Virus genome (UHGV): UHGV-1557986
Source of the DNA: a virus
Reading direction: 5' to 3' (one strand)
Length of the DNA: 30,395 bases
Below the pieces are notes generated by a model. It was not told the origin of the DNA, searched no databases, and was given only the letters and a program-made list of their open reading frames with translations. A program made the translations under genes and the position numbers. Shown here piece after piece: positions 11,954-30,395 of the stretch; positions within the stretch are counted from its first letter, which is position 1; each line of letters begins with the position of its first letter.

Positions 11954-11956
11954 GGA

Positions 11957-12228: not shown

Positions 12229-12662
12229 TACAGATAATCTTCCACACGAAGACCTAAACGACGGCCTACTTCTTCCAGTACTTTGTGTTCTGCTGGCTCG
12301 ATTTCACCGTCCGCTTCTGCAATTGTCAGCATGTTAACGAATACTTCTTCCGCTTCTTTTGGATCGTTTTTGATATCTTCAATTTCGCGAAGGATATTCA
12401 TGCGACCAACACGGAAGCCAGCTTCCAGTTGCTCGGTAAAGCGGGTAATTGTTGCAGTAATTTCGTTACCAAAATGACTAAGACGCGGATTAGAGCGGAC
12501 AAGCTGATCAAGTTTCGCTGTTTCTTCTTTTTCGATTTCACCATCAGCGGCAGACACCAACAAACAGCCACCGATAATGGCCTCCATCAGATCGCGATTC
12601 TCAACTTTTTTCAGCTCTACTTTTGCAGAAGCGACTTTCTTGCCGAACAATTTACCGAACAT
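12228..12662 (-). CDS. TerB-like (tellurite-resistance TerB family) protein, 144 aa; candidate P1 TciA equivalent
   Basis: Two repeated ADGEIE(K/P)xE motifs separated by about 70 aa, as in TerB domains. Confidence 0.55.
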   Translation of the reverse strand: MFGKLFGKKVASAKVELKKVENRDLMEAIIGGCLLVSAADGEIEKEETAKLDQLVRSNPRLSHFGNEITATITRFTEQLEAGFRVGRMNILREIEDIKNDPKEAEEVFVNMLTIAEADGEIEPAEHKVLEEVGRRLGLRVEDYL

Positions 12663-12809
12663 TGGTTATCCCTCAATAAAAGTGACATATTTATTAGATT
12701 GCGGTGCCGGGTTCCTCCCGGTGTCCTTTGGCTGGTTATCCACCGTGGACGGGGAAACAAGGAGAAATGAATGGACTGATATAACCATTTCCCCGCGTGC
12801 GCTTAGCCG

Positions 12810-12897
12810 CATTCACCGCAACGGAAAGAGCATTCTTGGTGGACCTGTAGATTGGGATATGAACCCGTTACAGGAGAATGCTCTTACCTGTTACGTG
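12810..12897. repeat. tRNA-like palindromic element H1
   Basis: Arms CGCAACGGAAAGAGCATTCT / AGAATGCTCTTACCTGTTACG; loop contains GTAGATTGGGATATGAACCCGTTAC, whose reverse complement is T-arm-like (GGGTTCATATCCC). Confidence 0.5.
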
Positions 12898-13070
12898 CTC
12901 CGTTTCGTGGAGCTAACGGCGGGTGATCGGGCCGCACCAGACTGGACTTATTTCAGCGTTATGCTCATGCCAGAGAATCAAACTGTGATGGTCGGTGCTG
13001 AACTCCGACACAGGGTTGTAGCAAGCCCCGCAAAGCGCGCACTACTGTAGTTGCGGCACATCAGCCTGTG

Positions 13071-13173
13071 CATTCACCACAATGTTGAGAACACTGGTTG
13101 TCACGCTGCAACGCAACATTTATTCGTAGATTGGGATATGACCCCGTTACGCCAGTGTTCTCAACGTTGTAGT
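13071..13173. repeat. tRNA-like palindromic element H2
   Basis: Arms CAATGTTGAGAACACTGG / CCAGTGTTCTCAACGTTG (17/18 complementary); loop contains GTAGATTGGGATATGACCCCGTTAC, shared with H1. Confidence 0.5.
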
Positions 13174-13304
13174 GCCGGTTACGGTTCCGGCCAGGCCTCT
13201 TCCTCAACGGGGTGTTCTCCATACGGACTACCGTTTATTGGTCGTTCCTGCGGTTTATGTTGTGAAGCCAGATGCTTATCTTCTGGTTGCTTCAAAGAGC
13301 TGCA

Positions 13305-13386
13305 CTTCATCACAACGGTAAGAGCACTCGATGCATTTAAGCCAAGCTCCATAAGGGAGAATGCCCTTACCTGTTGTGTTGTGATG
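13305..13386. repeat. tRNA-like palindromic element H3
   Basis: Arms CATCACAACGGTAAGAGCACTC / GAGAATGCCCTTACCTGTTGTGTTGTGATG. Confidence 0.45.
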
Positions 13387-13499
13387 ACCGGTGCTGATCT
13401 CCGGCTTGCGGTTATTTCAGACTCTCACGGGCGTTTAATTGCCCCGCCGAACAGCTCTTTTCCGCAATAGCTGCAATGTCTTTCGCGCATCAGCCTGCG

Positions 13500-13593
13500 C
13501 ATTCATCACAACGGTAAGGGTACTTCGTAGGGATTCGAACCCTCTGCCAAGCTCGGCGATCTCCGACGTCGCAAAATACCCTTACCTGTTGTG
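13500..13593. repeat. tRNA-like palindromic element H4, abutting the 3' end of tRNA-Thr; contains a canonical T-arm sequence
   Basis: Arms CACAACGGTAAGGGTA / TACCCTTACCTGTTGTG; interior GTAGGGATTCGAACCCTC, whose reverse complement holds GGGTTCGAATCCC; no canonical acceptor/anticodon arms found. Confidence 0.5.
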
Positions 13594-13594
13594 C

Positions 13595-13670
13595 TGGTGC
13601 CGATTAACGGACTCGAACCGCTGACATCCTGCTTACAAGGCAGGCGCTCTACCAACTGAGCTAAACCGGC
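13595..13670 (-). tRNA. tRNA-Thr (anticodon TGT)
   Basis: Hand-folded: GCCGGTT acceptor, D-arm GCTC-AGTTGGTA-GAGC, anticodon arm CCTGC-CTTGTAA-GCAGG, T-arm AGCGG-TTCGAGT-CCGTT, CCA encoded. Confidence 0.85.
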
Positions 13671-13672
13671 AT

Positions 13673-13748
13673 TGGCGATGGTGAATGGATTTGAACCATC
13701 GACCCGTTGATTAACAGTCAACCGCTCTAACCGCTGAGCTACACCATC
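13673..13748 (-). tRNA. tRNA-Asn (anticodon GTT)
   Basis: Hand-folded: acceptor GATGGTG/CACCATC, D-arm GCTC-AGCGGTTA-GAGC, anticodon arm GTTGA-CTGTTAA-TCAAC, T-loop TTCAAAT, CCA encoded; 2 nt from tRNA-Thr. Confidence 0.85.
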
Positions 13749-13949
13749 ACTTGCCGGGTACGTCTCCGGCGAGGGCTTCCACCTCCGTATGCTTTTCGGC
13801 GCACCTCGCCCTAGCTGCAATTCGGTAACAGGGGATGCACAACCCTGGCTTCCAGCGTGATTAGCGCCTTCAGCATGACGGGATATACCCGTAAATTCGT
13901 GGAACTGTACCCAAAGTGCTGTTAAGCACCGCTGTTACGCTGAAAAGAA

Positions 13950-14033
13950 AACGCAACAGGAAAGGACGCTGACCAACAGATGGCCCCTTCTCGTTCATCT
14001 GGTTAATCACACCAGCGCCCTTACCTGTTGTGC
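13950..14033. repeat. tRNA-like palindromic element H5 in the leader of the tRNA operon
   Basis: Arms CGCAACAGGAAAGG / CCCTTACCTGTTGTG, same arm family as H1-H4. Confidence 0.4.
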
Positions 14034-14400
14034 CTCCCCGTTCCCTAATACACAGACGGGGACACTCTGCGGTCGATTTTTTGACGGGGGACGACTCATA
14101 CCCCGTGGCATCTGGCTTCTTAGGCCGCTACCATCATAAGATCATCGTTTGCATTTACTTTAATGGTCAGTTTCTAAACCGCCGCAAAGTCGCTAACCAT
14201 GACGAAAACCCTGAAAAAAACGCCCACCCGAAGATGGGCAAACTGGAAGCTCGTAACGCACTTCGGCGTTGCCACTTAGGCGCATGGTCAACCTGGCAAC
14301 TCGGTGGTTTGTCTGGGAGGACTAGGCCCAGCCATGCTTACCGCCGCGCCTGTCGCGGCTAACAGCTAAATCGCTCTATAAATCACGATTCATTGAGGCG

Positions 14401-14430
14401 ATATTACACTAATAAATTTATTAGAGCAAT
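14401..14430 (-). promoter_or_regulatory. C1-type operator(s) overlapping a leftward promoter for the tRNA-tci-ban operon: perfect operator (revcomp ATTGCTCTAATAAATTT, 14414-14430) overlapping a second 15/17 site (14403-14419)
   Basis: On the minus strand: -35 TTGCTC (inside operator), 17-bp spacer, -10 TAATAT. Operator overlaps the dmt stop codon (14421-14423). Confidence 0.6.
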
Positions 14431-17400
14431 ATACCCAAAACGTCATGAGCTACACCTCGAGTGTCCCCCTTACAAGACACAGAACGTCTGGCAAAAAGAG
14501 GTTCCACTCTGAAGCCACTGTCATGATAAAGCTCTCTGATGTTTGGCGCGCCACTGTTAGTAATGAGAACCTTTGCACCTCGACGATGAGCATCCGTCAA
14601 CAGAGACACCAGGCGTTTTTGCTCTTCAAACTTAAAGTCATGACCGGAATAGTTCGTGAATCCCTCTGTATTTGGAAGCGGTTCATACGGCGGATCGCAA
14701 AAGATGACATCTCCTTCTCCGGCAGCTTCAATCACCGCTGCAAAATCACCGCATACAAACTCAGACCGCCCTTCCGCACCGAGGAAGGCTTCCATCTCCT
14801 GTAATGGGAAATACGGAGTTTTATACTTCCCATAACCGACATTGAACTCACCGGCCTGGTTGTAACGCGTCAATCCGTTAAAACAATGTCGGTTCAGGAA
14901 CAAAAACGCCGCTGCGCGATGTAAATCATCATAGACTTGTTTGTTAAACGCATTCCGTACTGCCAGGTATCCTTCCTGTGTGTTGTAGTCCTGGAAGAAA
15001 CGATGTGCCAGAGTGATAAGTGAATGCGCCTCGCGTTGCAGAGTCTTGTAAAAGTTAATCAGGTCAGCATTCACATCATTTAGCAGATTTTCCTGGTATC
15101 CGGCATTCATGAAGACAGCTCCGCCACCAACGAAAGGTTCAATCAGGCGCTTCCCTTCTGGCAAATAGCGAAAGATTTGTTCCAGAACACCAAATTTTCC
15201 ACCAGCCCATTTGAATATGGACCGTTCGAATTCTGCCGCTGGTTTAACTTTTCGCTCTTTTGTTTCACTTCCTTCTTTCTGCCGACATACGGCCTTAGTA
15301 ATCCGATCGCCAATCCAGCGCATTACTGGTATTGCCATACTATTGCCGATCGCTTTGTAACGCGGTCCGTCAGCTGCAAGCATCGCGGCCTCTTCTTCGC
15401 TTAAATCAGGATAGTTATTGCGAAGGTATGCCAGTTCATCTGAAGAAACTTTTTTACGCTTTTCCGTAGGGATCAACGTATGCCCATCAGGAAAACCTTG
15501 CAGCCTTTCACATTCGACAGGGGTAAGACGGCGTATTCTACCGTCGCCGAGCAATACAATTGGTGCTTCATGGTTACATGTTAAAGTTGGTGCCGAATTA
15601 TCGGTTTTTATCTCAGCCCCTCCTTGCCCATGTGCCATGGCAACTATGTTTGTATCATCGCAAGATCTGATAGCGATGTTTGAAGTATATCTGGTAGTTT
15701 CCTTCCCCTCGCCTCTGCTCGGCGCAATATCCCGGCGCACGCCTTCGAACTCAAAAAGTACCGTTGCGGGATCGAGGTCTGTTCGAGCACTTGCGACAAC
15801 AAACACGCGTCGGCGTCGTTGTGCCACTCCGAAGTATTGGGCATCAAGGATTCTCCAGGCCACCTTTCGCTGCGGCCCATAAATACAACCACACTGCGGC
15901 CACTTTGGAGCATGGCAACCGGTTTTGCCATCCCACCGCCAGAACGCGTTACTTTTTCCTGATTCAGGTCGATCACCTGGTTCAAATGGCGCATCTTCTC
16001 CAGCCAATCCGGCAAGGAAACATCCGAAGGCGTTATCTGCCGATGACAAGACTCCTGGGACATTTTCCCAGACAATAACGGCTGGTTTGAGAAATGACTC
16101 AGCCCGTTTGTCGTCAATTGCATTTGCAAGCTCCACATACTTTAAAGTTAGCGCGCCACGCTCATCATCAAGCCCACCACGTAATCCCGCGATACTGAAT
16201 GCCTGACAGTTATGGACCACCGCACCATTGAGGATATAGGAATGATCACCTTCGACTTCTATGTTGTATACAGTATCTAGGCCTACCGATTTAAACTCTT
16301 TGACTGTTCGTAAAAGCATTCCATGAGCCAATCTTGATTTACGTGACAATTTCTGCGGGCAGATTGTTACCTGATAATAATTCCGTTGATTTACCACGCG
16401 ATCCTCGATCACTTTTTTGGGCTCAACTTCAATAAAGCTGACCGAAGAAACATAACCACAAGTCTGTGACAACCCCGCAACGCCCCAAGCAAGCGCAGGA
16501 CTAACACTATTAATTCTAAATCCCGCTTTACCACTTGGTGTCCCATCAGTATCAAGATAGCCTTGTAAAAACACATGACGCAATGGATGCGACATCACCC
16601 ATGCAGGGATACGCTTAGCATGGCTTAACTCGCCAAAATGTTCATTAAGCCAATTGGCATAACACGTATCATTCAAGGTTACTTTGATGCTCCCTCGGAT
16701 TTCGCTTGCCACGGAAAATATGTTTTCTGGTATGCGGCAATGAAACTTTCTCAATTTCTGGCAATTTATGCCAAAAACAACCGCCTTCTTAGATTTACCT
16801 CTCCATCTCCTAATATATCCATCGCCAACATAAGCGCCCGCAAGATACATAGCCTGTTCTTCAGACAAGAACCGAGAACAAATATCTGGAGATGCAATAT
16901 TGAAATTAGTTAGAGCGCACCATTGATATCCCGGCATATCACATGCTGCTCGCCATTCCGGTTCAGACAACAACTCTCTCTTAAAATATGTGCCATTTTT
17001 CCGGGTGTTTTGGGCTTTCCACCGAACAGCCAGGAAGGGATGGTCATTGGTTGTTCTTATACCTAAAGGCTGCCCAACGGCATTAAGTAACCCCGTATTA
17101 GCTATTTTTGAACCAACTCTTTTTACTTGTTGTAACCGCCCGAGATGACTGACTACGTAATCGCCAGGGCAAACATCTTCTATTGGTTTATAACCATTTT
17201 TACAAAGAACCATATGCCCCGCGGTAAAACATGGTGTTCCCCCGACGAGCACGTCAGGGGATTCGATTTCCCCAGCCAAGACTTTTTTGGCAAGTTTTGT
17301 CATGTCGCCAAGGTTGGCGACATGGGGCCAGCGGAGCGCAAGAACGGCCGATGGAAAAGGCTCGATTTCAGCAAACCAAACCGGACGCATACCCAACGGT

Positions 17401-19931: not shown

Positions 19932-20354
19932 ATGTCATTCTTTTCTACGTTAAAAACAGCTTTGTCTTTGAAGGAGAAACTTGCTGCTACTGGTGTTCTT
20001 GTTCTGATTTGCGCACTTGTTGGTGCTGGGTTTGCATGGGAACGTCATCAGCTAAAGCAAGCCATGGAGAAAATTGGCAGTCTTGATCAGGCTGTTAAGG
20101 AACGTGATAAGTCAATAATGGATCTTAACCAGACCATTGAGACGATGAACAAAGCAGAGCAACATTTTCACAGCCAGGAAGTGAAAAATGAATCAGAACA
20201 AGCCAAATATGCTGACAGGCAAATGGAACGAAAAGCTGAAGTTCAGAAACAACTGGTTGCGTCGGGTAGTGTTCGCCAGCGCATTCCTGTTGACACTCAG
20301 CGGTTGCTCCGGGAGTCGATCAGCGAATTTAACGCCGACGCCGACAAAGGTTAA
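19932..20354 (+). CDS. i-spanin-like protein (Rz-like: N-terminal TM helix, periplasmic coiled coil), 140 aa
   Basis: SD AGGAGG; TM segment LAATGVLVLICALVGAGFAW then charged coiled-coil region. Confidence 0.5.
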   Translation: MSFFSTLKTALSLKEKLAATGVLVLICALVGAGFAWERHQLKQAMEKIGSLDQAVKERDKSIMDLNQTIETMNKAEQHFHSQEVKNESEQAKYADRQMERKAEVQKQLVASGSVRQRIPVDTQRLLRESISEFNADADKG

Positions 20355-20520
20355 TCACCCTGCCCCCAAAAGTGCGTTTATGTGCAGGATGCCAGAGTTT
20401 AGCAGTGAATATTTTGATGATCTGCCAGCCTATATCCTTGATACAGAAACGATGCTGATGGGGATTAACAGGAAGAATCGCAACGTTAATGATTACAACC
20501 ACGCTATCAGTGGTAACTAA
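20188..20520 (+). CDS. o-spanin-like outer-membrane lipoprotein (Rz1-like), overlapping the i-spanin gene in another frame; true start uncertain (possibly TTG 20257 giving MRRVVFASAFLLTLSGC)
   Basis: Lipobox LTLSGC after a hydrophobic h-region; mature part Pro-rich with one Cys; overlapped architecture typical of Rz/Rz1. Confidence 0.45.
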   Translation: MNQNKPNMLTGKWNEKLKFRNNWLRRVVFASAFLLTLSGCSGSRSANLTPTPTKVNHPAPKSAFMCRMPEFSSEYFDDLPAYILDTETMLMGINRKNRNVNDYNHAISGN

Positions 20521-20531
20521 AAGGGATTTTT

Positions 20532-20924
20532 ATGTCTGATAAAGTAACAGTAAAGCAAACTATCAACAAAGCGACTTCAATCTACAAAATTGAGCAAATC
20601 ACTGTTGGCAAGCCAGGATCTGAACAATACCGTCATGCTTTCGAGCTTGCCGATCAGCTTGGTTTAAAACACCCGGATTGCATCGAGCATGTATTTCCGA
20701 CCTATGCTGATGAGCAATGCACTCATGTTCTTACCGAAGAGGATTTTTTCAGCACTGAAGAACGAGAAGGCGTTGATCGCTGCATTGGTGTGATTTGTTC
20801 TTCGGTAAGTGATGAGTTATTCCCTAATGTGCCTGAATATGGTGGTATTGGATACCAGTTCCTGTATGAAGGCGATGAGCTTAAATGCTATGAACATGGT
20901 CTTCTTATCGAAAGCGTAGAATAA
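20532..20924 (+). CDS. hypothetical protein, 130 aa
   Basis: ORF track; no motif recognised. Confidence 0.5.
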   Translation: MSDKVTVKQTINKATSIYKIEQITVGKPGSEQYRHAFELADQLGLKHPDCIEHVFPTYADEQCTHVLTEEDFFSTEEREGVDRCIGVICSSVSDELFPNVPEYGGIGYQFLYEGDELKCYEHGLLIESVE

Positions 20925-20937
20925 TACCCTTCCTTCC

Positions 20938-20961
20938 AACCGGCTATGTTGGCCGGTTTTT
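20938..20961 (+). terminator. rho-independent terminator-like hairpin
   Basis: AACCGGC-tatgttg-GCCGGTT followed by TTT. Confidence 0.4.
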
Positions 20962-20964
20962 CAC

Positions 20965-21221
20965 TTATCCACATTATCCACTGGGTAGATCCAATAATTA
21001 GGTCCATACAGATCCCAATTAGATCCATATAGATCCCTGATCGTTGCAGGCCGCGCCACGTCTGGCTTAGAAGTGTATCGCGATGTGTGCTGGAGGGAAA
21101 ACGATGTGTGCTGGAGGGATAAAAATGTGTGCTGACGGGTTGCTAATGTGTGCTGGCGGGATATAGGATGTGTGCTGACGGGAAAGCCTGGGTAGTTATC
21201 ACCACTTATAAAAACTATCCA
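20965..21221. other. oriR-type plasmid replication origin: tandem DnaA boxes (TTATCCACA 20965-20973, TTATCCACT 20974-20982), cluster of five GATC sites in AGATCC repeats (20986-21045), iterons, and another DnaA box (CTATCCACA 21213-21221)
   Basis: Motifs read directly; arrangement matches the known P1 oriR layout. Confidence 0.8.
21082..21184 (+). repeat. incC: five direct 19-bp iterons (GATGTGTGCTGGAGGGAAA family), 21- to 23-bp periodicity
   Basis: Five copies at 21082, 21103, 21124, 21145, 21166. Confidence 0.85.
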
Positions 21222-21241
21222 CACAATTCGGAAAAAGTAAT

Positions 21242-22102
21242 ATGAATCAATCATTTATCTCCGATATTCTTTACGCAGACATTGAAAGTAAGGCAAAAGA
21301 ACTAACAGTTAATTCAAACAACACTGTCCAGCCTGTAGCATTGATGCGCTTGGGGGTATTCGTTCCGAAGCCATCAAAGAGCAAAGGAGAAAGTAAAGAG
21401 ATTGATGCCACCAAAGCGTTTTCCCAGCTGGAGATAGCTAAAGCCGAGGGTTACGATGATATTAAAATCACCGGTCCTCGACTCGATATGGATACTGATT
21501 TCAAAACGTGGATCGGTGTCATCTACGCGTTCAGCAAATACGGCTTGTCCTCAAACACCATCCAGTTATCGTTTCAGGAATTCGCTAAAGCCTGTGGTTT
21601 CCCCTCAAAACGTCTGGATGCGAAACTGCGTTTAACCATTCATGAATCACTTGGACGCTTACGTAACAAGGGTATCGCTTTTAAGCGCGGAAAAGATGCT
21701 AAAGGCGGCTATCAGACTGGTCTGCTAAAGGTCGGTCGTTTTGATGCTGACCTTGATCTGATAGAGCTGGAGGCTGATTCGAAGCTGTGGGAGCTGTTCC
21801 AGCTTGATTATCGCGTTCTGTTGCAACACCACGCCTTGCGTGCCCTTCCGAAGAAAGAAGCTGCACAAGCCATTTACACTTTCATCGAAAGCCTTCCGCA
21901 GAATCCGTTGCCGCTATCTTTCGCCCGAATCCGTGAGCGCCTGGCTTTGCAGTCAGCTGTTGGCGAGCAAAACCGTATCATTAAGAAAGCGATAGAACAG
22001 CTTAAAACAATCGGCTATCTCGACTGTTCAATTGAGAAGAAAGGCCGGGAAAGTTTTGTAATCGTCCATTCTCGCAATCCAAAGCTGAAACTCCCAGAAT
22101 AA
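21242..22102 (+). CDS. repA: plasmid replication initiator RepA (iteron-binding), 286 aa
   Basis: Flanked upstream by 5 and downstream by 9 iterons; length and N-terminus MNQSFISDILYADIESKAKEL as recalled for P1 RepA. Confidence 0.9.
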   Translation: MNQSFISDILYADIESKAKELTVNSNNTVQPVALMRLGVFVPKPSKSKGESKEIDATKAFSQLEIAKAEGYDDIKITGPRLDMDTDFKTWIGVIYAFSKYGLSSNTIQLSFQEFAKACGFPSKRLDAKLRLTIHESLGRLRNKGIAFKRGKDAKGGYQTGLLKVGRFDADLDLIELEADSKLWELFQLDYRVLLQHHALRALPKKEAAQAIYTFIESLPQNPLPLSFARIRERLALQSAVGEQNRIIKKAIEQLKTIGYLDCSIEKKGRESFVIVHSRNPKLKLPE

Positions 22103-22388
22103 GTGTGTGCTGGAGGGAAGCTGCATTAAAAAAATGTGTGCTGCCGGGAAGGCTTGTCTAATTTCCTGTTTTTGATGTGCGCTGGAGGGGGACGCCCCGC
22201 AGTTTGCCCAGACTTTCCCTCCAGCACACATCTGTCCATCCGTTTTTCCCTCCAGTGCACATGTAATTCTCTGCCTTTCCCTCCAGCACACATATTTGAT
22301 ACCAGCGATCCCTCCACAGCACATAATTTAATGCGACTTCCCTCTATCGCACATTCTGGTCCTGCATCATCCCTCCAGCACACATCTA
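22102..22388. repeat. incA: nine 19-bp iterons, three forward and six reverse, copy-control locus
   Basis: Copies at 22102, 22132, 22173 (forward) and 22214, 22245, 22277, 22307, 22338, 22370 (reverse, TTTCCCTCCAGCACACAT family). Confidence 0.85.
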
Positions 22389-22399
22389 ATAGCCACATC

Positions 22400-22480
22400 G
22401 CCATTTCTTTACGTGCAATAATTGACGCACGAATCAAAAAAAGTTGCACGTAGCAGAATCAAACGTACAATTCACTCATA
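22400..22480 (+). promoter_or_regulatory. putative par operon promoter/operator region
   Basis: Inverted repeat CGTGC-N11-GCACG and A/T-rich sequence upstream of parA. Inference by position. Confidence 0.3.
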
Positions 22481-22495
22481 CGAAATGATAAGGAG

Positions 22496-23707
22496 ATGAT
22501 GATGAAACGCGATTACGGCGGTGTCGGCACCATAGCTCTTCGTGCAAGCGCATTACTTAAGGCCATGAGTCAGGATATTGAAGATCAGCGCAAAGAGTTC
22601 AATCAGACCGAGTATTATCAGACGTTCACTCGTAACGCTGTGGCAAAGTTGCCGAAGCTGAGCCGCCGTATTGTGGAGCAGGCCATCAAAGAGATGGAAG
22701 ATGATGGGTACCAGTTCAACAAGAAACAGGTCGGTAACGTTGAACAGTACGCGCTGACCATCCAGAACGTCATTGATATCTATGCCCACCGTAAGATCCC
22801 CAAATATCGCGACATTCACAAATCGCCTTACGTTATTTTTGTCGTAAACCTGAAGGGTGGCGTATCCAAAACGGTTTCCACAGTCACGTTGGCGCACGCT
22901 CTGCGTGTGCATCAGGATTTACTGCGTCACGATCTGCGCATTCTGGTAATTGACCTTGACCCTCAGGCATCCAGCACAATGTTCCTCGACCATACTCACA
23001 GTATTGGTTCCATCCTGGAAACCGCCGCGCAGGCGATGCTGAACGACCTGGACGCGGAGACGCTACGCAAAGAGGTGATTCGTCCGACCATCGTTCCTGG
23101 CGTAGACGTGATTCCAGCCTCTATCGACGATGGCTTTGTTGCCAGCCAATGGAAAGAGCTGGTTGAAGAGCATCTTCCCGGACAAAATCAGTACGAAATC
23201 CTTCGACGCAATATCATTGATCGTGTTGCGGATGATTATGACTTTATCTTTATTGATACCGGTCCACACCTGGATCCGTTCCTGCTCAACGGTCTGGCGG
23301 CCAGCGATTTGCTGCTTACCCCTACCCCACCAGCCCAGGTTGACTTCCACTCAACACTGAAATATCTCACCCGTCTGCCAGAAATGCTGGAGCAACTGGA
23401 GGAGGAAGGCGTAGAACCGCGTTTGAGCGCCAGCATTGGTTTTATGTCGAAGATGACCGGCAAGCGCGATCACGAGACATCACACAGCCTTGCGCGTGAG
23501 GTTTACGCCAGCAACATTCTGGACTCTTCTCTGCCTCGTCTGGATGGCTTTGAGCGATGCGGCGAGTCTTTCGACACCGTAATCAGTGCCAACCCGCAAT
23601 CGTATCCAGGCAGTGCAGAGGCGCTGAAGAAGGCACGAACCGAGGCCGAGCGTTTCACTAAGGCTGTGTTTGATCGAATTGAGTTTGTTAGGGGTGAGGC
23701 GGCATGA
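22496..23707 (+). CDS. parA: partition ATPase ParA (type Ia, deviant Walker A NLKGGVSKT); start may be the 2nd or 3rd ATG of ATGATGATG
   Basis: Colinear with P1 ParA as remembered, clearly diverged; RBS AAGGAG. Confidence 0.9.
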   Translation: MMMKRDYGGVGTIALRASALLKAMSQDIEDQRKEFNQTEYYQTFTRNAVAKLPKLSRRIVEQAIKEMEDDGYQFNKKQVGNVEQYALTIQNVIDIYAHRKIPKYRDIHKSPYVIFVVNLKGGVSKTVSTVTLAHALRVHQDLLRHDLRILVIDLDPQASSTMFLDHTHSIGSILETAAQAMLNDLDAETLRKEVIRPTIVPGVDVIPASIDDGFVASQWKELVEEHLPGQNQYEILRRNIIDRVADDYDFIFIDTGPHLDPFLLNGLAASDLLLTPTPPAQVDFHSTLKYLTRLPEMLEQLEEEGVEPRLSASIGFMSKMTGKRDHETSHSLAREVYASNILDSSLPRLDGFERCGESFDTVISANPQSYPGSAEALKKARTEAERFTKAVFDRIEFVRGEAA

Positions 23708-24669
23708 AAAAAATAGTTTCCCGTGGACGAGTGCTGGGCAAGAATAGCTCCGAGTTTGCTCGCATGCTTGAAGGCAGTGAAGGCACCAAAACCTTTACCC
23801 TAAAATCTGGCCGCCAGGCTAAATTCTTGCTTACCGTCGTGCTGAGTGGTGAGATTGAGTCGCGCACGTTCGTTGACCCGGCAGTTAACGGCCGCGATCA
23901 GTCTCTGCTCACCCCTGAGTCGGTAAGCGATATTTCCCGCACCATTAAATTGCAACAGTTCTTCCCGGCTATCGGTCGTATGGTTGGGGAGCGCATTGAG
24001 GTATTGGACGGATCGCGTCGCCGCGCTGCGTGTATCTTCAATGAAACGAAATTTGAGATTCTGGTGACGAAAGATGAGATCAGCCTGGCGGATGCCCGCC
24101 AGCTGGCCATTGATATCCAGACAGCCCGCGAACACACTCTGCGCGAGCTGGGTAAACGCTTCGAGGTTATGTACGGTAAGAATATGACCAAAGAAGAGAT
24201 CGCCCGAGCTGAGAACATCTCAAAGGCAAAAGTGACGCGAGCTTTCCAGGCTGCCGCGGTGCCGGATGAGATGATTGCTGTCTTCCCCGTAGCCAGCGAT
24301 CTCGCCCTTCCAGATTACCAGTTACTGCTCCAGATCGCCGAGGATGCTAACGCTAAAAGCGTGCCGATTGAAGAGCTGGTTGATACGGTGCGCGAACGAA
24401 TTGCAGAGACTGAGGGCGCGAAAGAGGATAAAGCGAAGATACTGGCTATCTTCAAAGCGGAAAGCAAAAGCCTGAAGCCCGCGCCGGTTAAATCTGTGGT
24501 GGTTGAGAAGCTGCGAGACTTCTCTGACCGTCGCCAATATGCCCGAAAGAAGTCCGATCCGAAAAAACGGGTTGTCGCCTACGAGTTCTCCAGACTCCCG
24601 TCTGAAGTGCAAACTGAAATTGACGAAGCAATAAAAAAAATCATTGGGAAAATGTCTGCTGGGGAATAA
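23704..24669 (+). CDS. parB: partition centromere-binding protein ParB, 321 aa
   Basis: Overlaps the parA stop (ATGA); conserved blocks NGRDQSLLTP, ILDGSRRRAA, AKVTRA as in P1 ParB. Confidence 0.85.
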   Translation: MKKIVSRGRVLGKNSSEFARMLEGSEGTKTFTLKSGRQAKFLLTVVLSGEIESRTFVDPAVNGRDQSLLTPESVSDISRTIKLQQFFPAIGRMVGERIEVLDGSRRRAACIFNETKFEILVTKDEISLADARQLAIDIQTAREHTLRELGKRFEVMYGKNMTKEEIARAENISKAKVTRAFQAAAVPDEMIAVFPVASDLALPDYQLLLQIAEDANAKSVPIEELVDTVRERIAETEGAKEDKAKILAIFKAESKSLKPAPVKSVVVEKLRDFSDRRQYARKKSDPKKRVVAYEFSRLPSEVQTEIDEAIKKIIGKMSAGE

Positions 24670-24699
24670 TCCCGCTGGTGGGAGGCGGCTTTAGCCCCC

Positions 24700-24800
24700 T
24701 CCCCTGTCTAAAATGTCCCGCGCCTATTTCATGTATAAATATATGATATATATAGATATTCATGGAAAATTTCAGACTGAAATTCCCACGATTTCACGCC
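24700..24800. other. parS-like partition site: AT-rich IHF-like core flanked by heptamer A-boxes (ATTTCA / TGAAAT / ATTTCAC) and hexamer TTCCCA in the position of the P1 B-box
   Basis: AAAATTTCAGACTGAAATTCCCACGATTTCAC closely parallels the P1 parS right arm as remembered, but with TTCCCA where P1 has TCGCCA. Confidence 0.5.
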
Positions 24801-24868
24801 TGTTTTACTTGCCCCCCTCCCCCGCACAAAAAATTTAAAAAATTACTTTTAGCGAGAAAGTCAACAAG

Positions 24869-24884
24869 TGACTTTCAATAAAAT
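24869..24884 (+). promoter_or_regulatory. Candidate late promoter TGACT-N5-TAAAAT upstream of the virion structural genes
   Basis: CAAGTGACTttcaaTAAAAT; same architecture as the site at 4386-4401. Confidence 0.3.
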
Positions 24885-24935
24885 CTCTTCCGAAAAGGGA
24901 TTCACACAAGTGCCTTGTGTTTAAGGAAGAGTAAA

Positions 24936-26642
24936 TTGAGTAACTTACGCGAATACCAGAATCGTATTGCAGATATCGCAAAACGCTCTAAAGCTGTGCT
25001 TGGCTGGGCAAGCACTGCGCAGTTCGGTACTGATAACCAATTCATTAAAGATGATGCCGCGCGTGCCGCATCTATCCTTGAAGCTGCACGTAAAGACCCG
25101 GTTTTTGCGGGTATCTCTGATAATGCCACCGCTCAAATCGCTACAGCGTGGGCAAGTGCACTGGCTGACTACGCCGCAGCACATAAATCTATGCCGCGTC
25201 CGGAAATTCTGGCCTCCTGCCACCAGACGCTGGAAAACTGCCTGATTGAGTCCACCCGCAATAGCATGGATGCCACTAATAAAGCGATGCTGGAATCCGT
25301 CGCAGCAGAGATGATGAGCGTTTCTGACGGTGTTATGCGTCTGCCTTTATTCCTCGCGATGATCCTGCCTGTTCAGTTGGGGGCAGCTACCGCTGATGCG
25401 TGTACCTTCATTCCGGTTACGCGTGACCAGTCCGACATCTATGAAGTCTTTAACGTGGCAGGTTCCTCTTTTGGTTCTTATGCTGCTGGTGATGTTCTGG
25501 ACATGCAATCCGTCGGTGTGTACAGCCAGTTACGCCGCCGCTATGTGCTGGTGGCAAGCTCCGATGGCACCAGCAAAACCGCAACCTTCAAGATGGAAGA
25601 CTTCGAAGGCCAGAATGTACCAATCCGAAAAGGTCGCACTAATATCTACGTTAACCGTATTAAGTCTGTTGTTGATAACGGTTCCGGCAGCCTACTTCAC
25701 TCGTTTACTAATGCTGCTGGTGAGCAAATCACTGTTACCTGCTCTCTGAACTACAACATTGGTCAGATTGCCCTGTCGTTCTCCAAAGCGCCGGATAAAG
25801 GCACTGAGATCGCAATTGAGACGGAAATCAATATTGAAGCCGCTCCTGAGCTGATCCCGCTGATCAACCACGAAATGAAGAAATACACCCTGTTCCCAAG
25901 CCAGTTCGTTATCGCGGCTGAGCACACGGTACAGGCGGCGTATGAAGCACAGCGTGAATTTGGTCTGGACCTGGGTTCCCTACAGTTCCGCACCCTGAAG
26001 GAATACCTGTCTCATGAACAGGATATGCTGCGTCTTCGCATCATGATCTGGCGTACTCTTGCGACCGACACCTTTGACATCGCTCTGCCGGTTAACCAGT
26101 CCTTTGATGTATGGGCAACCATCATTCGTGGCAAATTCCAGACTGTATATCGCGACATTATTGAGCGCGTTAAATCTTCTGGTGCGATGGGGATGTTTGC
26201 TGGTGCTGATGCAGCATCTTTCTTCAAACAGTTGCCGAAGGATTTCTTCCAGCCAGCCGAAGACTATATCCAGACTCCGTATGTTCACTACATCGGTACC
26301 CTGTTCGGTAACGTGAAAGTGTACGAAGTACCTGCTGGTATTTGTAAGAACTTAACGACAGAGAACATTCAGTTCAGCTCGATGGATGTGCTGTGCTACG
26401 TCCGTGATGAAAATCCGGGTAAAGCAGGCTTCGTGACTGGTGATGCTGTCCCGGCCATCCCGTTCCAGCATCCGACCACTCCGGCGCTGGTCAACCGTAC
26501 CACGCTGTGGGGTTCGGCTATCAACGATATGCACCCACGCAACGGCGCTGATTACTTCACTCGTGTAACGCTGACAATGGCCAAAAAAGGCGGGCTTAAC
26601 TTCATTAGCGGCGACACGATTGATGCCGGTGACTCTGAGTAA
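24936..26642 (+). CDS. virion structural protein, tentatively major head protein (P1 gp23-like); start placed at TTG 24936 after RBS AAGGAAG
   Basis: Size about 62 kDa and position next to parS match recollection of P1 gene 23; no motif confirmation. Confidence 0.45.
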   Translation: MSNLREYQNRIADIAKRSKAVLGWASTAQFGTDNQFIKDDAARAASILEAARKDPVFAGISDNATAQIATAWASALADYAAAHKSMPRPEILASCHQTLENCLIESTRNSMDATNKAMLESVAAEMMSVSDGVMRLPLFLAMILPVQLGAATADACTFIPVTRDQSDIYEVFNVAGSSFGSYAAGDVLDMQSVGVYSQLRRRYVLVASSDGTSKTATFKMEDFEGQNVPIRKGRTNIYVNRIKSVVDNGSGSLLHSFTNAAGEQITVTCSLNYNIGQIALSFSKAPDKGTEIAIETEINIEAAPELIPLINHEMKKYTLFPSQFVIAAEHTVQAAYEAQREFGLDLGSLQFRTLKEYLSHEQDMLRLRIMIWRTLATDTFDIALPVNQSFDVWATIIRGKFQTVYRDIIERVKSSGAMGMFAGADAASFFKQLPKDFFQPAEDYIQTPYVHYIGTLFGNVKVYEVPAGICKNLTTENIQFSSMDVLCYVRDENPGKAGFVTGDAVPAIPFQHPTTPALVNRTTLWGSAINDMHPRNGADYFTRVTLTMAKKGGLNFISGDTIDAGDSE

Positions 26643-26702
26643 TCAGGGGAAGTTCTCCGTTTAACATAGCGCCCCCGTGCGGGGCGCATAACAGGGAAAG
26701 TT

Positions 26703-28292
26703 ATGTCTCAATATTCAATTCAACAGTCATTAGGTAATGCATCCGGCGTCGCGGTTAGCCCGATCAATGCCGATGCGACGTTATCTACCGGTGTTGCATT
26801 AAATAGCAGCTTATGGGCTGGTATTGGCGTATTTGCGCGTGGCAAGCCGTTTACTGTTCTTGCGGTTACTGAGTCCAATTACGAAGATGTTCTCGGCGAA
26901 CCGCTGAAGCCGTCTTCCGGCTCACAGTTCGAACCAATTCGCCATGTATACGAAGCTATTCAGCAAACGTCTGGTTATGTTGTTCGCGCTGTTCCGGATG
27001 ATGCGAAGTTCCCGATTATTATGTTCGATGAATCAGGCGAACCGGCTTACAGTGCGTTGCCATACGGTTCTGAAATTGAACTTGATAGTGGCGAAGCCTT
27101 TGCTATCTACGTTGATGATGGTGATCCGTGTATTTCACCTACCCGTGAGTTAACCATCGAAACGGCAACAGCGGACAGCGCGGGTAATGAACGCTTCCTC
27201 TTAAAACTGACCCAGACGACTTCGCTCGGCGTGGTAACGACCCTGGAGACACACACTGTGTCTTTGGCGGAAGAAGCGAAAGATGACATGGGCCGCTTGT
27301 GTTATCTGCCTACGGCTCTGGAAGCCCGTTCTAAATATCTGCGCGCGGTTGTTAATGAAGAGCTGATTTCGACAGCGAAAGTAACAAACAAAAAATCGTT
27401 GGCGTTCACTGGCGGTACCAACGGCGATCAGTCGAAAATCTCAACCGCTGCGTACCTGCGTGCGGTTAAAGTGCTGAATAATGCGCCGTACATGTACACC
27501 GCTGTTCTTGGCCTGGGCTGCTATGACAATGCGGCTATCACCGCATTAGGTAAAATCTGTGCAGATCGCCTGATTGATGGCTTCTTTGATGTCAAACCGA
27601 CATTGACGTACACGGAAGCGATCTCTGCTGTTGAAGATACCGGTTTACTTGGTACCGATTATGTAAGCTGTGCTGTCTATCACTACCCGTTCTCCTGCAA
27701 AGACAAATGGACCCAATCCCGTGTGGTCTTTGGTCTGTCTGGCGTGGCGTATGCGGCGAAAGCTCGTGGCGTCAAGAAAAACTCTGATGTCGGCGGTTGG
27801 CATTACTCACCGGCTGGTGAAGAACGTGCCGTCATTGCTCGTGCGTCAATTCAACCGCTGTATCCGGAAGATACCCCGGACGAAGAAGCAATGGTCAAGG
27901 GCCGTCTCAATAAAGTATCTGTTGGCACCTCTGGCCAGATGATCATCGACGATGCTTTAACTTGCTGCACGCAGGATAACTATCTGCACTTCCAGCACGT
28001 CCCATCCCTGATGAATGCAATCAGCCGTTTCTTTGTCCAGTTAGCCCGACAGATGAAGCATAGCCCGGACGGTATTACTGCGGCTGGCCTGACTAAAGGG
28101 ATGACCAAACTTTTAGATCGCTTTGTCGCCTCCGGCGCTCTGGTGGCTCCTCGTGATCCTGATGCTGACGGTACAGAACCGTATGTGCTGAAAGTTACGC
28201 AGGCGGAATTCGATAAATGGGAAGTAGTCTGGGCCTGCTGCCCGACTGGCGTAGCCCGTCGTATCCAGGGCGTACCGCTGCTTATTAAGTAA
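26703..28292 (+). CDS. virion structural protein, tentatively contractile tail sheath (P1 gp22-like), 529 aa
   Basis: Size and synteny only. Confidence 0.4.
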   Translation: MSQYSIQQSLGNASGVAVSPINADATLSTGVALNSSLWAGIGVFARGKPFTVLAVTESNYEDVLGEPLKPSSGSQFEPIRHVYEAIQQTSGYVVRAVPDDAKFPIIMFDESGEPAYSALPYGSEIELDSGEAFAIYVDDGDPCISPTRELTIETATADSAGNERFLLKLTQTTSLGVVTTLETHTVSLAEEAKDDMGRLCYLPTALEARSKYLRAVVNEELISTAKVTNKKSLAFTGGTNGDQSKISTAAYLRAVKVLNNAPYMYTAVLGLGCYDNAAITALGKICADRLIDGFFDVKPTLTYTEAISAVEDTGLLGTDYVSCAVYHYPFSCKDKWTQSRVVFGLSGVAYAAKARGVKKNSDVGGWHYSPAGEERAVIARASIQPLYPEDTPDEEAMVKGRLNKVSVGTSGQMIIDDALTCCTQDNYLHFQHVPSLMNAISRFFVQLARQMKHSPDGITAAGLTKGMTKLLDRFVASGALVAPRDPDADGTEPYVLKVTQAEFDKWEVVWACCPTGVARRIQGVPLLIK

Positions 28293-28301
28293 GGGAATAC
28301 A

Positions 28302-29117
28302 ATGAGCAAAAACTTTTTTCAATCCGGGGCATTTTTGGGGAATGGACTGTCTCGTTTCGCTTTGAACTCTGATCCTGTGCAGCTGATGGAGTCTGCCCGA
28401 GCAAGCGCTGAACCGCCAACAGATCCGGTTATTAATAATAATCCGGAACCGGCGGCACAGACTAACGATAACGTTCCATCTGCCCAGGCTCCTGAGCAAA
28501 TCCTGGAAGGGAAAGACGGTAAAGAATGGACCGTCGAACAGGCGCACCAGATGATTCTGGAAGCTGCAAATCGAAGTGCTATGCAAAATGCGTTGAGTGA
28601 TGCGGCCGACGCCGTTTTCGCCTGGGCTGATAGCGGTGATCTGACTTTCGACTCCCTTGATGGTTTCGTTCAGGCTATCGCTGGTATCTCTGATGACGAC
28701 GACTCCGAAGTTACAGAAGAACAGGACGATGCCTATAACGAAGCATGGGCAAATGTTGCTGACTTCCTCGCAGCATGCGGTGTAGATGATGACCTGATCG
28801 AAGCACTGGCTGACGATGAAGACGACGACGCAGCTGCTGATGTTGGTGCCTCTATCGCTGGTTTAGATAGCGACGACCGCGACGAACTGGAAGCGGCGTT
28901 TGTTGTTGCTGGCACTTCTGATGAAATGCTGACTGAAGCATTTAAGAAGGTTGTTCGTAACGGTGAGATCAAACTCATCCGTAAACGCCTGCGTAAAAAA
29001 CGTCTGACTGCGGCTCAAAAATCGGCGCTGAAAAAAGCGCGTCGAAAAGCCCAGACCGGCGCGGCAAAACTTGCCCGCAAAAAGTCAATGAAACTGCGCC
29101 GTAAGCGCCTTGGCTAA
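28302..29117 (+). CDS. hypothetical acidic protein with poly-basic C-terminal tail, 271 aa
   Basis: Asp/Glu-rich body; last 45 aa about half Lys/Arg (KRLRKKRLTAAQKSALKKARRKAQTGAAKLARKKSMKLRRKRLG). Confidence 0.5.
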   Translation: MSKNFFQSGAFLGNGLSRFALNSDPVQLMESARASAEPPTDPVINNNPEPAAQTNDNVPSAQAPEQILEGKDGKEWTVEQAHQMILEAANRSAMQNALSDAADAVFAWADSGDLTFDSLDGFVQAIAGISDDDDSEVTEEQDDAYNEAWANVADFLAACGVDDDLIEALADDEDDDAAADVGASIAGLDSDDRDELEAAFVVAGTSDEMLTEAFKKVVRNGEIKLIRKRLRKKRLTAAQKSALKKARRKAQTGAAKLARKKSMKLRRKRLG

Positions 29118-29152
29118 AGGAGGAGGCCGGAGAACTCCGGCCTTTAACTTGA

Positions 29153-29734
29153 ATGGCACCTATTCCTTATGGGGTTTACAGCCAGGCTGACGGTGTATCG
29201 CCATATCTGAAAGTTACTTTAACGAACTCTCAGTACCAGGTTACCGGATATATCAGCCAGGGAGCGGCAATGAACATGGCCCAGAATTGGGAAGCGCCGT
29301 TTACCGGTATGTCCATGGGATCTGTTGCTGGTGCCTTCAGTGGTTTTGCGCAGGTTGGTACTGAAACAACGTCGGTTGCCCGTTGGAACAGCTTAATGGT
29401 TTGGGAAGGGGGAACACCGCCGACTTTCACGCTGCCAGTAACTTTCATCGCTTTGTTTGACCCATTCACGGAGGTTTCAGGAGCTATCGCCGCATTGTCA
29501 GCGATGATTAGCCCGGAACTTAAAGATGCCAGTATTGGTGGTCGAATCCCGGAGCGTGTGACGCTAAACATTGGTCGCCGGATCAACATCATTGATGTCG
29601 CTATCCAGGACATAAGTTTCGATCTCGATGCGCCCAGGGACAGCAATGGACATTTCCTGAAAAACACCGTCAACCTCCAGTTGACCGGTTCTTCGATATA
29701 TAACAGCTCCGATATTGTTCGGGCGTTCCAGTAA
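29153..29734 (+). CDS. virion structural protein, tentatively tail tube (P1 gp21-like), 193 aa
   Basis: Size about 21 kDa and synteny only. Confidence 0.4.
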   Translation: MAPIPYGVYSQADGVSPYLKVTLTNSQYQVTGYISQGAAMNMAQNWEAPFTGMSMGSVAGAFSGFAQVGTETTSVARWNSLMVWEGGTPPTFTLPVTFIALFDPFTEVSGAIAALSAMISPELKDASIGGRIPERVTLNIGRRINIIDVAIQDISFDLDAPRDSNGHFLKNTVNLQLTGSSIYNSSDIVRAFQ

Positions 29735-29745
29735 AAGGATTTTAT

Positions 29746-30255
29746 ATGGGGCACAATAACACTAAGGGAAACCGTAAATTTATTAAGGGCCGCTATACTG
29801 CCAACGCGGCCAAAGGCGAACGACTGGTATCTTCTGAATTCCAGCTCACTTTTGCAGGCCATGAAGATATCAGCGTACTGGTTCGCACGTCGCAAATTCC
29901 TGAAATGACCCGCGAGGATGTGGAGGACTATGGTCCGAATGGTGTGAAGTTCAACCAGCACGGTCCAATTCGAAACTCTGGGGAAATCCAGGTCCAGTGC
30001 GTGGAGACTATCGAAGGCGATATTCTTCAGTTCATTAAAGATCGCATTGCGGCGAAGGACTATGTTGATATCACGATGGCTGCTACCCCTGAATCCAAAT
30101 CTTCCGGGGTTAACGCTGTGACAAAAGCTGCTACAACAATTGAAATGTTGGACTGCAAAATCTACAGTGATGCAATCGACTTTAGTACCGAAGATGTGAC
30201 TGCCGCTGTGCGCCCGTCACTTCGTATCGTCTACAACTGGATTGAGTGGGATTAA
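29746..30255 (+). CDS. hypothetical structural protein, 169 aa, with possible T4 gp19-type tube-like features
   Basis: RBS AAGGA; C-terminal ...RIVYNWIEWD loosely resembles the C-terminal end of T4 gp19-type tube proteins; weak. Confidence 0.4.
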   Translation: MGHNNTKGNRKFIKGRYTANAAKGERLVSSEFQLTFAGHEDISVLVRTSQIPEMTREDVEDYGPNGVKFNQHGPIRNSGEIQVQCVETIEGDILQFIKDRIAAKDYVDITMAATPESKSSGVNAVTKAATTIEMLDCKIYSDAIDFSTEDVTAAVRPSLRIVYNWIEWD

Positions 30256-30278
30256 GAGTCATCCCTTGTATTTTAAAG

Positions 30279-30395
30279 GGCACTGTTGCAAATAGTCGGT
30301 GGTGATAAACTTATCATCCCCTTTTGCTGATGGAGCTGCACATGAACCCATTCAAAGGCCGGCATTTTCAGCGTGACATCATTCTGTGGGCCGTA
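30279..30395 (+). mobile_element. IS26 (IS6 family), left end; element continues beyond window end
   Basis: 14-bp terminal inverted repeat GGCACTGTTGCAAA at 30279, followed 63 bp later by the transposase start. Confidence 0.85.
30342..30395 (+). CDS. tnp26: IS26 transposase Tnp26, first 18 codons (partial)
   Basis: MNPFKGRHFQRDIILWAV matches the Tnp26 N-terminus as remembered. Confidence 0.85.
   Translation, partial: MNPFKGRHFQRDIILWAV

What the first reader, a model, noticed from the sequence alone, without database searches (positions are those of the whole stretch)
30279..30395. IS26 inserted immediately downstream of the structural gene cluster
The IS26 inverted repeat begins 24 bp after the stop of the last structural ORF. 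IS26 commonly mobilises antibiotic-resistance modules, so the phage-plasmid may carry or have acquired cargo just beyond this window. The insertion could also separate downstream tail genes from their promoter.
Basis: partly seen in the sequence, partly recalled or inferred. Interest (0 to 1): 0.4.

Follow-up and report, generated by a model that had tools for sequence, protein, structure and literature searches.

The report
Ordinary IS26 insertion after P1 bplB
The last 117 bases of the window are the start of a well-known jumping gene, IS26, cleanly inserted just after the last gene of a P1-type phage-plasmid tail operon; this is an ordinary, already annotated event that carries no antibiotic-resistance cargo at this spot.

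Summary
Window 30279-30395 is 117/117 identical to the left end of IS26: IRL GGCACTGTTGCAAA at 30279-30292, tnp26 ATG at 30342. P1-type homology stops exactly at 30278, 23 nt after the bplB stop codon.

The window ends inside repeats on both sides (ISSen4 at 1-116, IS26 at the end), so it looks like a short-read contig. It matches E. coli "ATCC 98082" plasmid NZ_CP034659.1 (454,520 bp, IncY + IncHI1B) with 3 mismatches. That is the only record I found with this junction.

In that record the IS26 is a complete 820-bp copy flanked by a perfect 8-bp duplication, TTTTAAAG. Removing it restores the uninterrupted relative exactly. It is therefore a simple insertion, not the edge of a resistance module.

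The target is the 5' foot of the conserved terminator that closes the late operon 23-22-21-pmgG-bplB. The next gene, hok, is convergent. No tail gene is cut off from a promoter; instead the operon is separated from its terminator.

Cargo does exist further on, behind a second IS26 3.8 kb away: higBA and an IS26-bracketed sucrose regulon. No antibiotic-resistance gene is predicted anywhere in the plasmid.

Already known; low interest.

The parts
30279..30395 (+). Left end of IS26. Only the first 117 of 820 nt are present; the element runs off the window.
   Evidence: 117/117 identity to IS26 in at least 5000 plasmids. It continues to a full 820-bp copy at NZ_CP034659.1 9038-9857.
30279..30292 (+). 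IS26 left terminal inverted repeat (IRL), GGCACTGTTGCAAA
   Evidence: The only match in the window, with 0 mismatches. The same 14 nt are found inverted at the other end of the copy in the record.
30342..30395 (+). First 18 codons of tnp26 (MNPFKGRHFQRDIILWAV), on the same strand as the late operon
   Evidence: Sequence read. The full 234-aa product in the record hits Pfam DDE_Tnp_IS240 at 2e-48.
30271..30278 (.). Target site TTTTAAAG, the left copy of the 8-bp target-site duplication
   Evidence: The same 8 nt follow the IRR at record 9858-9865. Uninterrupted relatives have a single copy.
30248..30275 (+). Weak terminator-like hairpin overlapping the bplB stop codon (GGGATTAAGAGTCATCCC, then TTGTATTTTA). 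It remains upstream of IS26.
   Evidence: Pattern scan only: 5 pairs, 8-nt loop. Function was not tested.
29746..30255 (+). bplB (169 aa), last gene of the late operon
   Evidence: ORF list; P1 annotation; PHROG phrog_1120 'tail tube protein' at 9e-83.
24936..29734 (+). Genes 23 (24936-26642), 22 tail sheath (26703-28292), 21 (28302-29117) and pmgG (29153-29734), the rest of the late operon that ends at the insertion site
   Evidence: Collinear with P1 NC_005856 genes 23-22-21-pmgG-bplB; PHROG hits.
24866..24884 (+). Exact copy of the P1 predicted late promoter LP23, which would drive transcription towards IS26
   Evidence: The 19-nt LP23 sequence annotated in NC_005856 is found unchanged in the window. 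Promoter activity was not tested here.
1..116 (-). End of an IS3-family ISSen4 copy at the other edge of the window, followed by its 4-bp duplication CTGG at 117-120. Together with the IS26 end, this shows the window is a repeat-bounded contig.
   Evidence: Record annotation; flank comparison with the uninterrupted relative; the first 116 nt occur 4 times and the last 117 nt 16 times in the record.

Best explanation
The window ends in a complete, canonical IS26: an IS6-family element of 820 bp with 14-bp terminal repeats and one DDE transposase, Tnp26. It transposed into the IncY, P1-like phage-plasmid backbone at TTTTAAAG, 16-23 nt past the bplB stop codon. That site is the 5' foot of the conserved intrinsic terminator AAAGCTCC-TTCG-GGAGCTTT-TTTATTT, which closes the late operon 23-22-21-pmgG-bplB. 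It is a simple insertion: 8 bp are duplicated and nothing is deleted. Behind it the backbone continues with the intact terminator, hok/sok, repL, kilA, ant, icd and C4. Shown: the identity of the element, the exact junction, the duplication, restoration of the empty site, and the convergent gene arrangement. Inferred: the mechanism. Established IS26 biology predicts copy-in cointegrate formation by Tnp26, followed by recombination between the two IS copies, which leaves one IS with an 8-bp duplication. Inferred consequences are small. The main terminator is displaced 828 bp, so late-operon transcripts can run into the co-oriented tnp26, although a weak hairpin at 30248-30275 remains upstream. 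No hybrid outward promoter is created. hok/sok is probably untouched. In the sibling record this is the only one of 17 full IS26 copies that still has its own duplication. The other copies have recombined, scattering the P1 genome into at least 5 blocks of a 454-kb IncY::IncHI1B mosaic that carries non-antibiotic cargo.
For: IS26 identity is 117/117 with E = 3e-54, and the IRL is unique in the window. P1-type homology ends at 30278 in about 670 plasmids and 19 phage records. The window equals NZ_CP034659.1 433280-454520 plus 1-9154 with 3 mismatches. In that record the IS26 at 9038-9857 is 820 bp and is flanked by TTTTAAAG on both sides. Deleting IS26 plus one duplication copy gives 0 mismatches in 572 nt against the uninterrupted plasmid NZ_CP040069.1. 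In the collinearity map, reference 1-9037 aligns to record 1-9037 and reference 9030-12871 aligns to record 9858-13699, an 8-bp overlap. The terminator hairpin starts inside the duplicated 8 bp and is conserved in P1 and in 9 of 10 further relatives; the tenth lacked the search anchor. hokD lies on the opposite strand, and the sok and C4 RNAs are found behind the IS. The full Tnp26 hits DDE_Tnp_IS240. No promoter-like site appears at either junction. IS26 behaviour (8-bp duplication, cointegrates, plasmid reshuffling) is taken from PMC4196232 and PMC4471558. IS26 is the IS most often seen in P1-like phage-plasmids (PMC9600943).
Against: The window shows only 117 nt of the element. Completeness, the right-hand duplication and everything beyond come from a sibling record that differs from the window by 3 SNPs, so the window's own source could have a different right side after IS26-IS26 recombination. 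The long-range structure of the 454-kb record could not be checked independently. The terminator, read-through and hok statements rest on pattern scans, folding and analogy, not on expression data.
Confidence: 0.85

Rival explanations
1. The IS26 is the left boundary of an IS26-bounded antibiotic-resistance module (pseudo-compound transposon) that starts just beyond the window.
For: IS26 is the IS most often found next to resistance genes in P1-like phage-plasmids (PMC9600943). A second, directly oriented IS26 lies 3.8 kb further on in the sibling record.
Against: The 3,842 bp between the two copies are P1 backbone (hok/sok, repL, kilA, ant, icd, C4), collinear and 99.8% identical with an uninterrupted relative. 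This copy has its own perfect 8-bp duplication. The only resistance genes predicted in the whole 454-kb record are heat-resistance and arsenic loci.
Confidence: 0.05
2. In the window's actual source the same left junction exists, but the IS26 has since recombined with another of the many IS26 copies by inversion, deletion or cointegration. In that case the DNA beyond it is not the hok-repL segment seen in NZ_CP034659.1.
For: 16 of the 17 full IS26 copies in the record have mismatched flanks, and several form exchanged pairs (CGCGGTTT, ACGAAAGA, CATATCGG, TTCTGAAC), so such recombination is frequent in this plasmid. The window differs from the record by 3 SNPs, so it is not the same assembly.
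Against: Only 3 differences in 30.4 kb, and both repeat junctions are identical, which argues for a very close sibling. By arithmetic, sibling short-read contigs of 30.2-31.0 kb end inside IS26 at the same place.
Confidence: 0.08
3. The terminal 117 nt are an assembly artefact, a graph overlap or chimeric contig end, and IS26 is not physically adjacent to bplB.
For: Both window ends stop 116-117 nt inside multi-copy repeats. That is how de Bruijn contigs end, and contig ends are error-prone.
Against: An independent complete assembly contains exactly this junction and the matching right junction with the duplication. A k-mer overlap into a repeat still requires reads that span the junction.
Confidence: 0.02

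Closest known systems
IS26 (IS6/IS26 family insertion sequence), as annotated in NZ_CP034659.1 at 9038-9857
   Same: The first 117 nt are identical. In the sibling record the copy is 820 bp long and has 14-bp perfect terminal repeats, a 234-aa DDE transposase and an 8-bp target duplication.
   Different: The Tnp26 of this copy carries M58I relative to the commonest protein (WP_001067855.1). That position lies outside the window.
IS26-carrying P1-like phage-plasmids such as RCS47 (FO818745, three IS26 matches) and others surveyed in PMC9600943
   Same: A P1-type IncY backbone that has acquired IS26, the IS that dominates accessory regions in this group.
   Different: In those elements IS26 brackets antibiotic-resistance genes at a few recurrent loci. 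Here the copy is solitary, sits at the bplB terminator, has backbone on both sides, and this junction is found in no other record.
Bacteriophage P1 (NC_005856), uninterrupted bplB-pmgF region
   Same: Identical sequence through bplB, TTTTAAAG and the terminator hairpin. The gene order 23-22-21-pmgG-bplB and the LP23 sequence are also the same.
   Different: P1 continues with pmgF-rlfB-rlfA. This lineage, like NZ_CP040069.1, has hok/sok instead. P1 has no IS at this site.
IS26-driven plasmid reorganisation by replicative transposition and recombination (He et al. 2015, PMC4471558)
   Same: The sibling plasmid shows many IS26 copies with exchanged 8-bp flanks, inversions and replicon fusion.
   Different: The copy at the window edge is the exception, because it still has its own matched duplication.

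Membership tests
IS26 (IS6 family) | 14-bp perfect terminal inverted repeats GGCACTGTTGCAAA at both ends | tested here: met
   The IRL is in the window at 30279-30292. The IRR is seen only in the sibling record, ending at 9857.
IS26 (IS6 family) | Near-identity to the 820-bp IS26 sequence over its whole length | tested here: met
   117/117 in the window. The sibling record has an 820-bp copy that is 98.7-100% identical to the 16 other full copies. The remaining 703 nt cannot be tested in the window itself.
IS26 (IS6 family) | A single DDE transposase, Tnp26, of 234 aa | tested here: met
   The first 18 codons are in the window. The full ORF in the record hits Pfam DDE_Tnp_IS240 at 2.3e-48 and has one substitution (M58I) relative to the common Tnp26.
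IS26 (IS6 family) | 8-bp target-site duplication on insertion | tested here: met
   TTTTAAAG is on both sides in NZ_CP034659.1, and the empty site is restored with 0 mismatches in 572 nt. The right-hand copy lies outside the window.
IS26 (IS6 family) | Transposition through cointegrate formation (copy-in or targeted conservative) | not testable with these tools
   Inferred from the literature (PMC4196232, PMC4471558). The exchanged flanks of the other copies are consistent with it.
IS26-bounded resistance module (pseudo-compound transposon or translocatable unit carrying antibiotic-resistance genes) | An antibiotic-resistance gene adjacent to, or bracketed by, this IS26 | tested here: not met
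   P1 backbone lies on both sides. The only resistance genes predicted in the record are the heat-resistance and ars loci, far away.
IS26-bounded resistance module (pseudo-compound transposon or translocatable unit carrying antibiotic-resistance genes) | A second, directly oriented IS26 bracketing a segment | tested here: met
   IS26 at 13700-14519 is in the same orientation, 3,842 bp away. The bracketed segment is the phage's own hok/sok-repL-kilA-ant-icd-C4 region, not cargo.
P1-like (Punavirus, IncY) phage-plasmid | IncY repA-parAB together with P1 structural and late genes in P1 order | tested here: met
   95.9-99.5% nucleotide identity to P1 records; IncY typing and repA/parA/parB; PHROG hits.
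P1-like (Punavirus, IncY) phage-plasmid | A contiguous genome of about 90-100 kb that could be packaged as a phage | tested here: not met
   In the sibling record the backbone lies in at least 5 separated or inverted blocks of a 454-kb replicon. About 75 of 97.6 kb of the relative are matched, and ISSen4 interrupts a morphogenesis gene. This cannot be tested for the window's own source.

The most novel reading that the evidence does not exclude
This IS26 and the next directly oriented copy bracket 3.8 kb that holds the P1 lytic replicon (repL/oriL) and the hok/sok addiction module. Together they could form a translocatable unit that excises as a circle, replicates by itself and re-inserts next to other IS26 copies. 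In addition, because tnp26 now lies between the late operon and its terminator, prophage induction might raise IS26 activity. Neither idea is excluded by my evidence, and neither was tested.
Probability: 0.04. Interest if true: 0.4.

Novelty: already known. Interest (0 to 1): 0.08.

Why it matters
It matters little beyond bookkeeping. It explains why the contig ends where it does, because of a repeat. It shows that this P1-type element is not an intact resistance-carrying phage-plasmid at this locus. It also corrects the expected polarity effect: the operon's terminator is displaced, not a promoter. The sibling record is a clear example of IS26 scrambling a phage-plasmid into a large multi-replicon mosaic, but that process is well documented.

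Tried and rejected
1. I searched for the exact 40-nt left junction in JGI metagenome contigs, IMG/VR viral contigs and GTDB species-representative genomes. There were 0 hits in each, so no further independent copies were found.

2. I looked for sibling contigs through exact proteins. The ISSen4-truncated 106-aa ORF gave 109 blocks, none with a contig above 50 kb. Examples are a 30,236-bp and a 31,039-bp contig, but the 10-kb flank limit does not reach their IS26 end. Gp23 is far too common (28,926 blocks) to isolate the lineage.

3. I tested for a hybrid outward promoter formed by the IS26 -35 box. No promoter-like site appears at either junction, and reading the sequence by eye shows no -10 hexamer at 16-18 nt. 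I rejected this idea.

4. I tested whether the insertion came with a deletion of pmgF/rlfB/rlfA. It did not. The hok-type arrangement is native to this lineage, and the empty site is restored exactly.

5. Literature on 'ATCC 98082' describes only its use as a production or reference strain and says nothing about the plasmid.

6. A junction-spanning 32-aa ORF on the right side could not be looked up, because it is not encoded in the window.

Full report
**Observation.** The last 117 nt of the window (30279-30395) begin with GGCACTGTTGCAAA and continue through an ATG at 30342 that opens MNPFKGRHFQRDIILWAV. This stretch is 100% identical over its full length to at least 5000 PLSDB plasmids, E = 3e-54, under features annotated 'IS6-like element IS26 family transposase'. 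The 14-nt repeat occurs only once in the window. The preceding ORF, 29746-30255 (169 aa), is P1 BplB, PHROG 'tail tube protein'. Its stop codon ends at 30255, leaving 23 nt before IS26. Matches to about 670 uninterrupted P1-like plasmids and 19 P1-type phage records all stop at query position 1279 of 1396, which is window 30278. A second search of complete E. coli genomes places the break at the same base.

**What the window is.** The whole window equals NZ_CP034659.1 (E. coli strain 'ATCC 98082', unnamed plasmid, 454,520 bp, circular, replicons IncY + IncHI1B) at 433280-454520 joined to 1-9154, with 3 mismatches. The first 116 nt are the end of an IS3-family ISSen4, followed by its 4-bp duplication CTGG. 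In the record the first 116 nt occur 4 times and the last 117 nt occur 16 times, while slightly longer end-pieces are unique. The window is therefore the unique stretch between two repeats plus about 117 nt of each. This is the signature of a short-read contig from a very close sibling of that record. The sequence 'beyond the window' has to be read in the sibling.

**How unique the junction is.** The left junction is found in 1 of 5,426 complete E. coli genomes and 1 of 72,556 PLSDB plasmids. It is absent from 50,697 phage records and from the metagenome, viral and GTDB representative contig collections. The right junction is equally unique.

**What lies beyond.** In the record the IS26 is a full 820-bp copy (9038-9857) with TTTTAAAG on both sides. 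Deleting the IS and one copy of the 8-mer reproduces the uninterrupted P1-like plasmid NZ_CP040069.1 with 0 mismatches in 572 nt. Whole-plasmid alignment shows reference 1-9037 matching record 1-9037 and reference 9030-12871 matching record 9858-13699, an 8-bp overlap. This is a simple insertion with no deletion.

The complete Tnp26 is a DDE_Tnp_IS240 protein. It carries M58I relative to the commonest Tnp26.

Behind the IS come hokD on the opposite strand, sok RNA (Rfam 114 bits), repL, kilA, ant, icd and C4 RNA (Rfam 70 bits). These are P1's own lytic-replicon and immunity-I region. P1 itself has pmgF-rlfB-rlfA where this lineage has hok/sok.

**The target site.** In every relative examined that contained the search anchor, P1 included, bplB is followed by ...TTTTAAAGCTCCTTCGGGAGCTTTTTT. 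Immediately after that the lineages diverge into at least three alternative modules. The scan tool calls AAAGCTCC-TTCG-GGAGCTTT plus TTTATTT a terminator with 8 pairs, and it folds at -11 to -14 kcal/mol. The duplicated 8-mer overlaps the first four stem bases. IS26 therefore went in at the 5' foot of the terminator of the late operon 23-22-21-pmgG-bplB, whose predicted late promoter LP23 is conserved exactly at 24866-24884.

Because of the duplication the hairpin is intact, but it now lies behind the IS, at record 9862-9881. A weaker hairpin at window 30248-30275 remains upstream.

**Consequences (inferred).**
- Late transcripts can enter the co-oriented tnp26.
- No promoter-like site is created at either junction.
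- The hok transcript probably ends about 30 nt short of the IS. This estimate uses the promoter-like site at record 10290-10317, the sok match and, from my own knowledge, the roughly 400-nt length of R1 hok mRNA.
- No downstream tail gene is cut off from a promoter. The next gene is convergent, and in P1 the next structural genes (pmgC, sit and so on) have their own late promoter, LPsit.

**Cargo and context.** I rebuilt the whole record from ten fetched pieces. It has 17 full IS26 copies and one partial copy. Only the window-edge copy keeps a matched duplication. Other copies share exchanged flanks:
- CGCGGTTT at copies 13700(+) and 55936(-)
- ACGAAAGA at 27117(+) and 72407(-)
- CATATCGG at 85247(+) and 412355(-)
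- TTCTGAAC at 86345(+) and 369961(+)

This is the pattern expected from IS26-mediated inversion and fusion (PMC4471558). The P1-like backbone is split into at least 5 blocks, and about 75 of 97.6 kb of the relative are matched.

After the second IS26 (13700-14519) come higBA, three hypothetical genes and a truncated ref. Then follow an inverted IS26, the scrK-Y-A-B-R sucrose regulon (20226-26772), and another IS26. None of this DNA has homology to the uninterrupted relative. The only resistance genes predicted in the record are a heat-resistance locus and an ars operon. No antibiotic-resistance gene is listed. One caveat is that PLSDB's gene table is incomplete for ordinary CDS.

**Comparison with what is known.** IS26 is among the best-studied insertion sequences: 8-bp duplication, cointegrate formation, translocatable units (PMC4196232). 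It is the IS most often seen in the accessory regions of P1-like phage-plasmids (PMC9600943). This copy is annotated in RefSeq. All defining features of IS26 that could be tested are met, partly in the window and fully in the sibling. The defining feature of a resistance module, an adjacent antibiotic-resistance gene, was tested and not met.

**Verdict.** This is a real, correctly located, ordinary IS26 insertion. It is already known. Interest is low.

Noticed in passing
window 1-120 and 114-434 (- strand): The window starts 116 nt inside an ISSen4 (IS3 family) that interrupts a P1 morphogenesis-type gene, with a 4-bp duplication CTGG. This leaves a 106-aa truncated ORF whose stop codon is supplied by the IS end. 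That exact ORF is on record in 109 blocks of public assemblies, never on a contig longer than 50 kb (for example AFYG01000045.1, 30,236 bp, and ERZ1744949 NODE_477, 31,039 bp). The same repeat-bounded 30-kb block has therefore been sequenced many times.
   Followed up: partly
window 10464, 11937, 12001: These are the only three differences from NZ_CP034659.1. Position 11937 lies inside a tRNA gene (11878-11953, - strand) that ARAGORN calls tRNA-Met (CAT) and RefSeq calls tRNA-Ile.
   Followed up: no
L001 13597-13700 (NZ_CP034659.1): The second IS26 begins 18 nt upstream of the C4 antisense RNA. It therefore removes the c4-icd-ant promoters and the C1 operator known from P1. Its 8-bp partner flank (CGCGGTTT) is at the inverted IS26 at 55936, which implies a roughly 42-kb inversion.
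   Followed up: partly
L001 9038-14519: Two directly oriented IS26 copies bracket 3,842 bp holding hok/sok, repL (lytic origin), kilA, ant, icd and C4. Structurally this is a pseudo-compound transposon made of phage backbone.
   Followed up: no
L001 18426-27936: A complete sucrose regulon (fructokinase-like kinase, porin, PTS IIBC, sucrose-6-phosphate hydrolase, LacI-type repressor) lies between an inverted and a direct IS26. It has no homology to the uninterrupted P1-like relative.
   Followed up: partly
L004, L005 and L018-L027, directly after the bplB terminator: The DNA right after the conserved terminator is a variable spot. There are three alternative modules (pmgF-rlfB-rlfA in P1, hok/sok, and an unrelated AT-rich module with a 198-aa ORF). 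One relative (L027) has a different transposase gene between bplB and hok.
   Followed up: partly
NZ_CP034659.1 IS26 copies at 9038, 13700, 27117, 85247 and 412355: Five IS26 copies encode a Tnp26 with M58I (WP_009364894.1) instead of the common protein. The window-edge copy is 100% identical to the copy at 27117, next to the sucrose genes.
   Followed up: no
NZ_CP034659.1, whole record (L006-L013): The 454-kb plasmid is a mosaic. It holds IncHI-type transfer genes, chromosomal-looking genes (corA, malT, ompC, mltB), a heat-resistance locus (clpK and others), ars, mrk fimbriae, Tn7-like elements and TIR/CBASS-type defence genes. Its long-range structure could not be checked here.
   Followed up: no
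literature, PMC8638605: A genome announcement lists 'ATCC 98082' as the closest reference strain for many clinical urine E. coli isolates. Other papers use ATCC 98082 as a metabolic-engineering production host. The provenance of the record's strain label is unclear.
   Followed up: no
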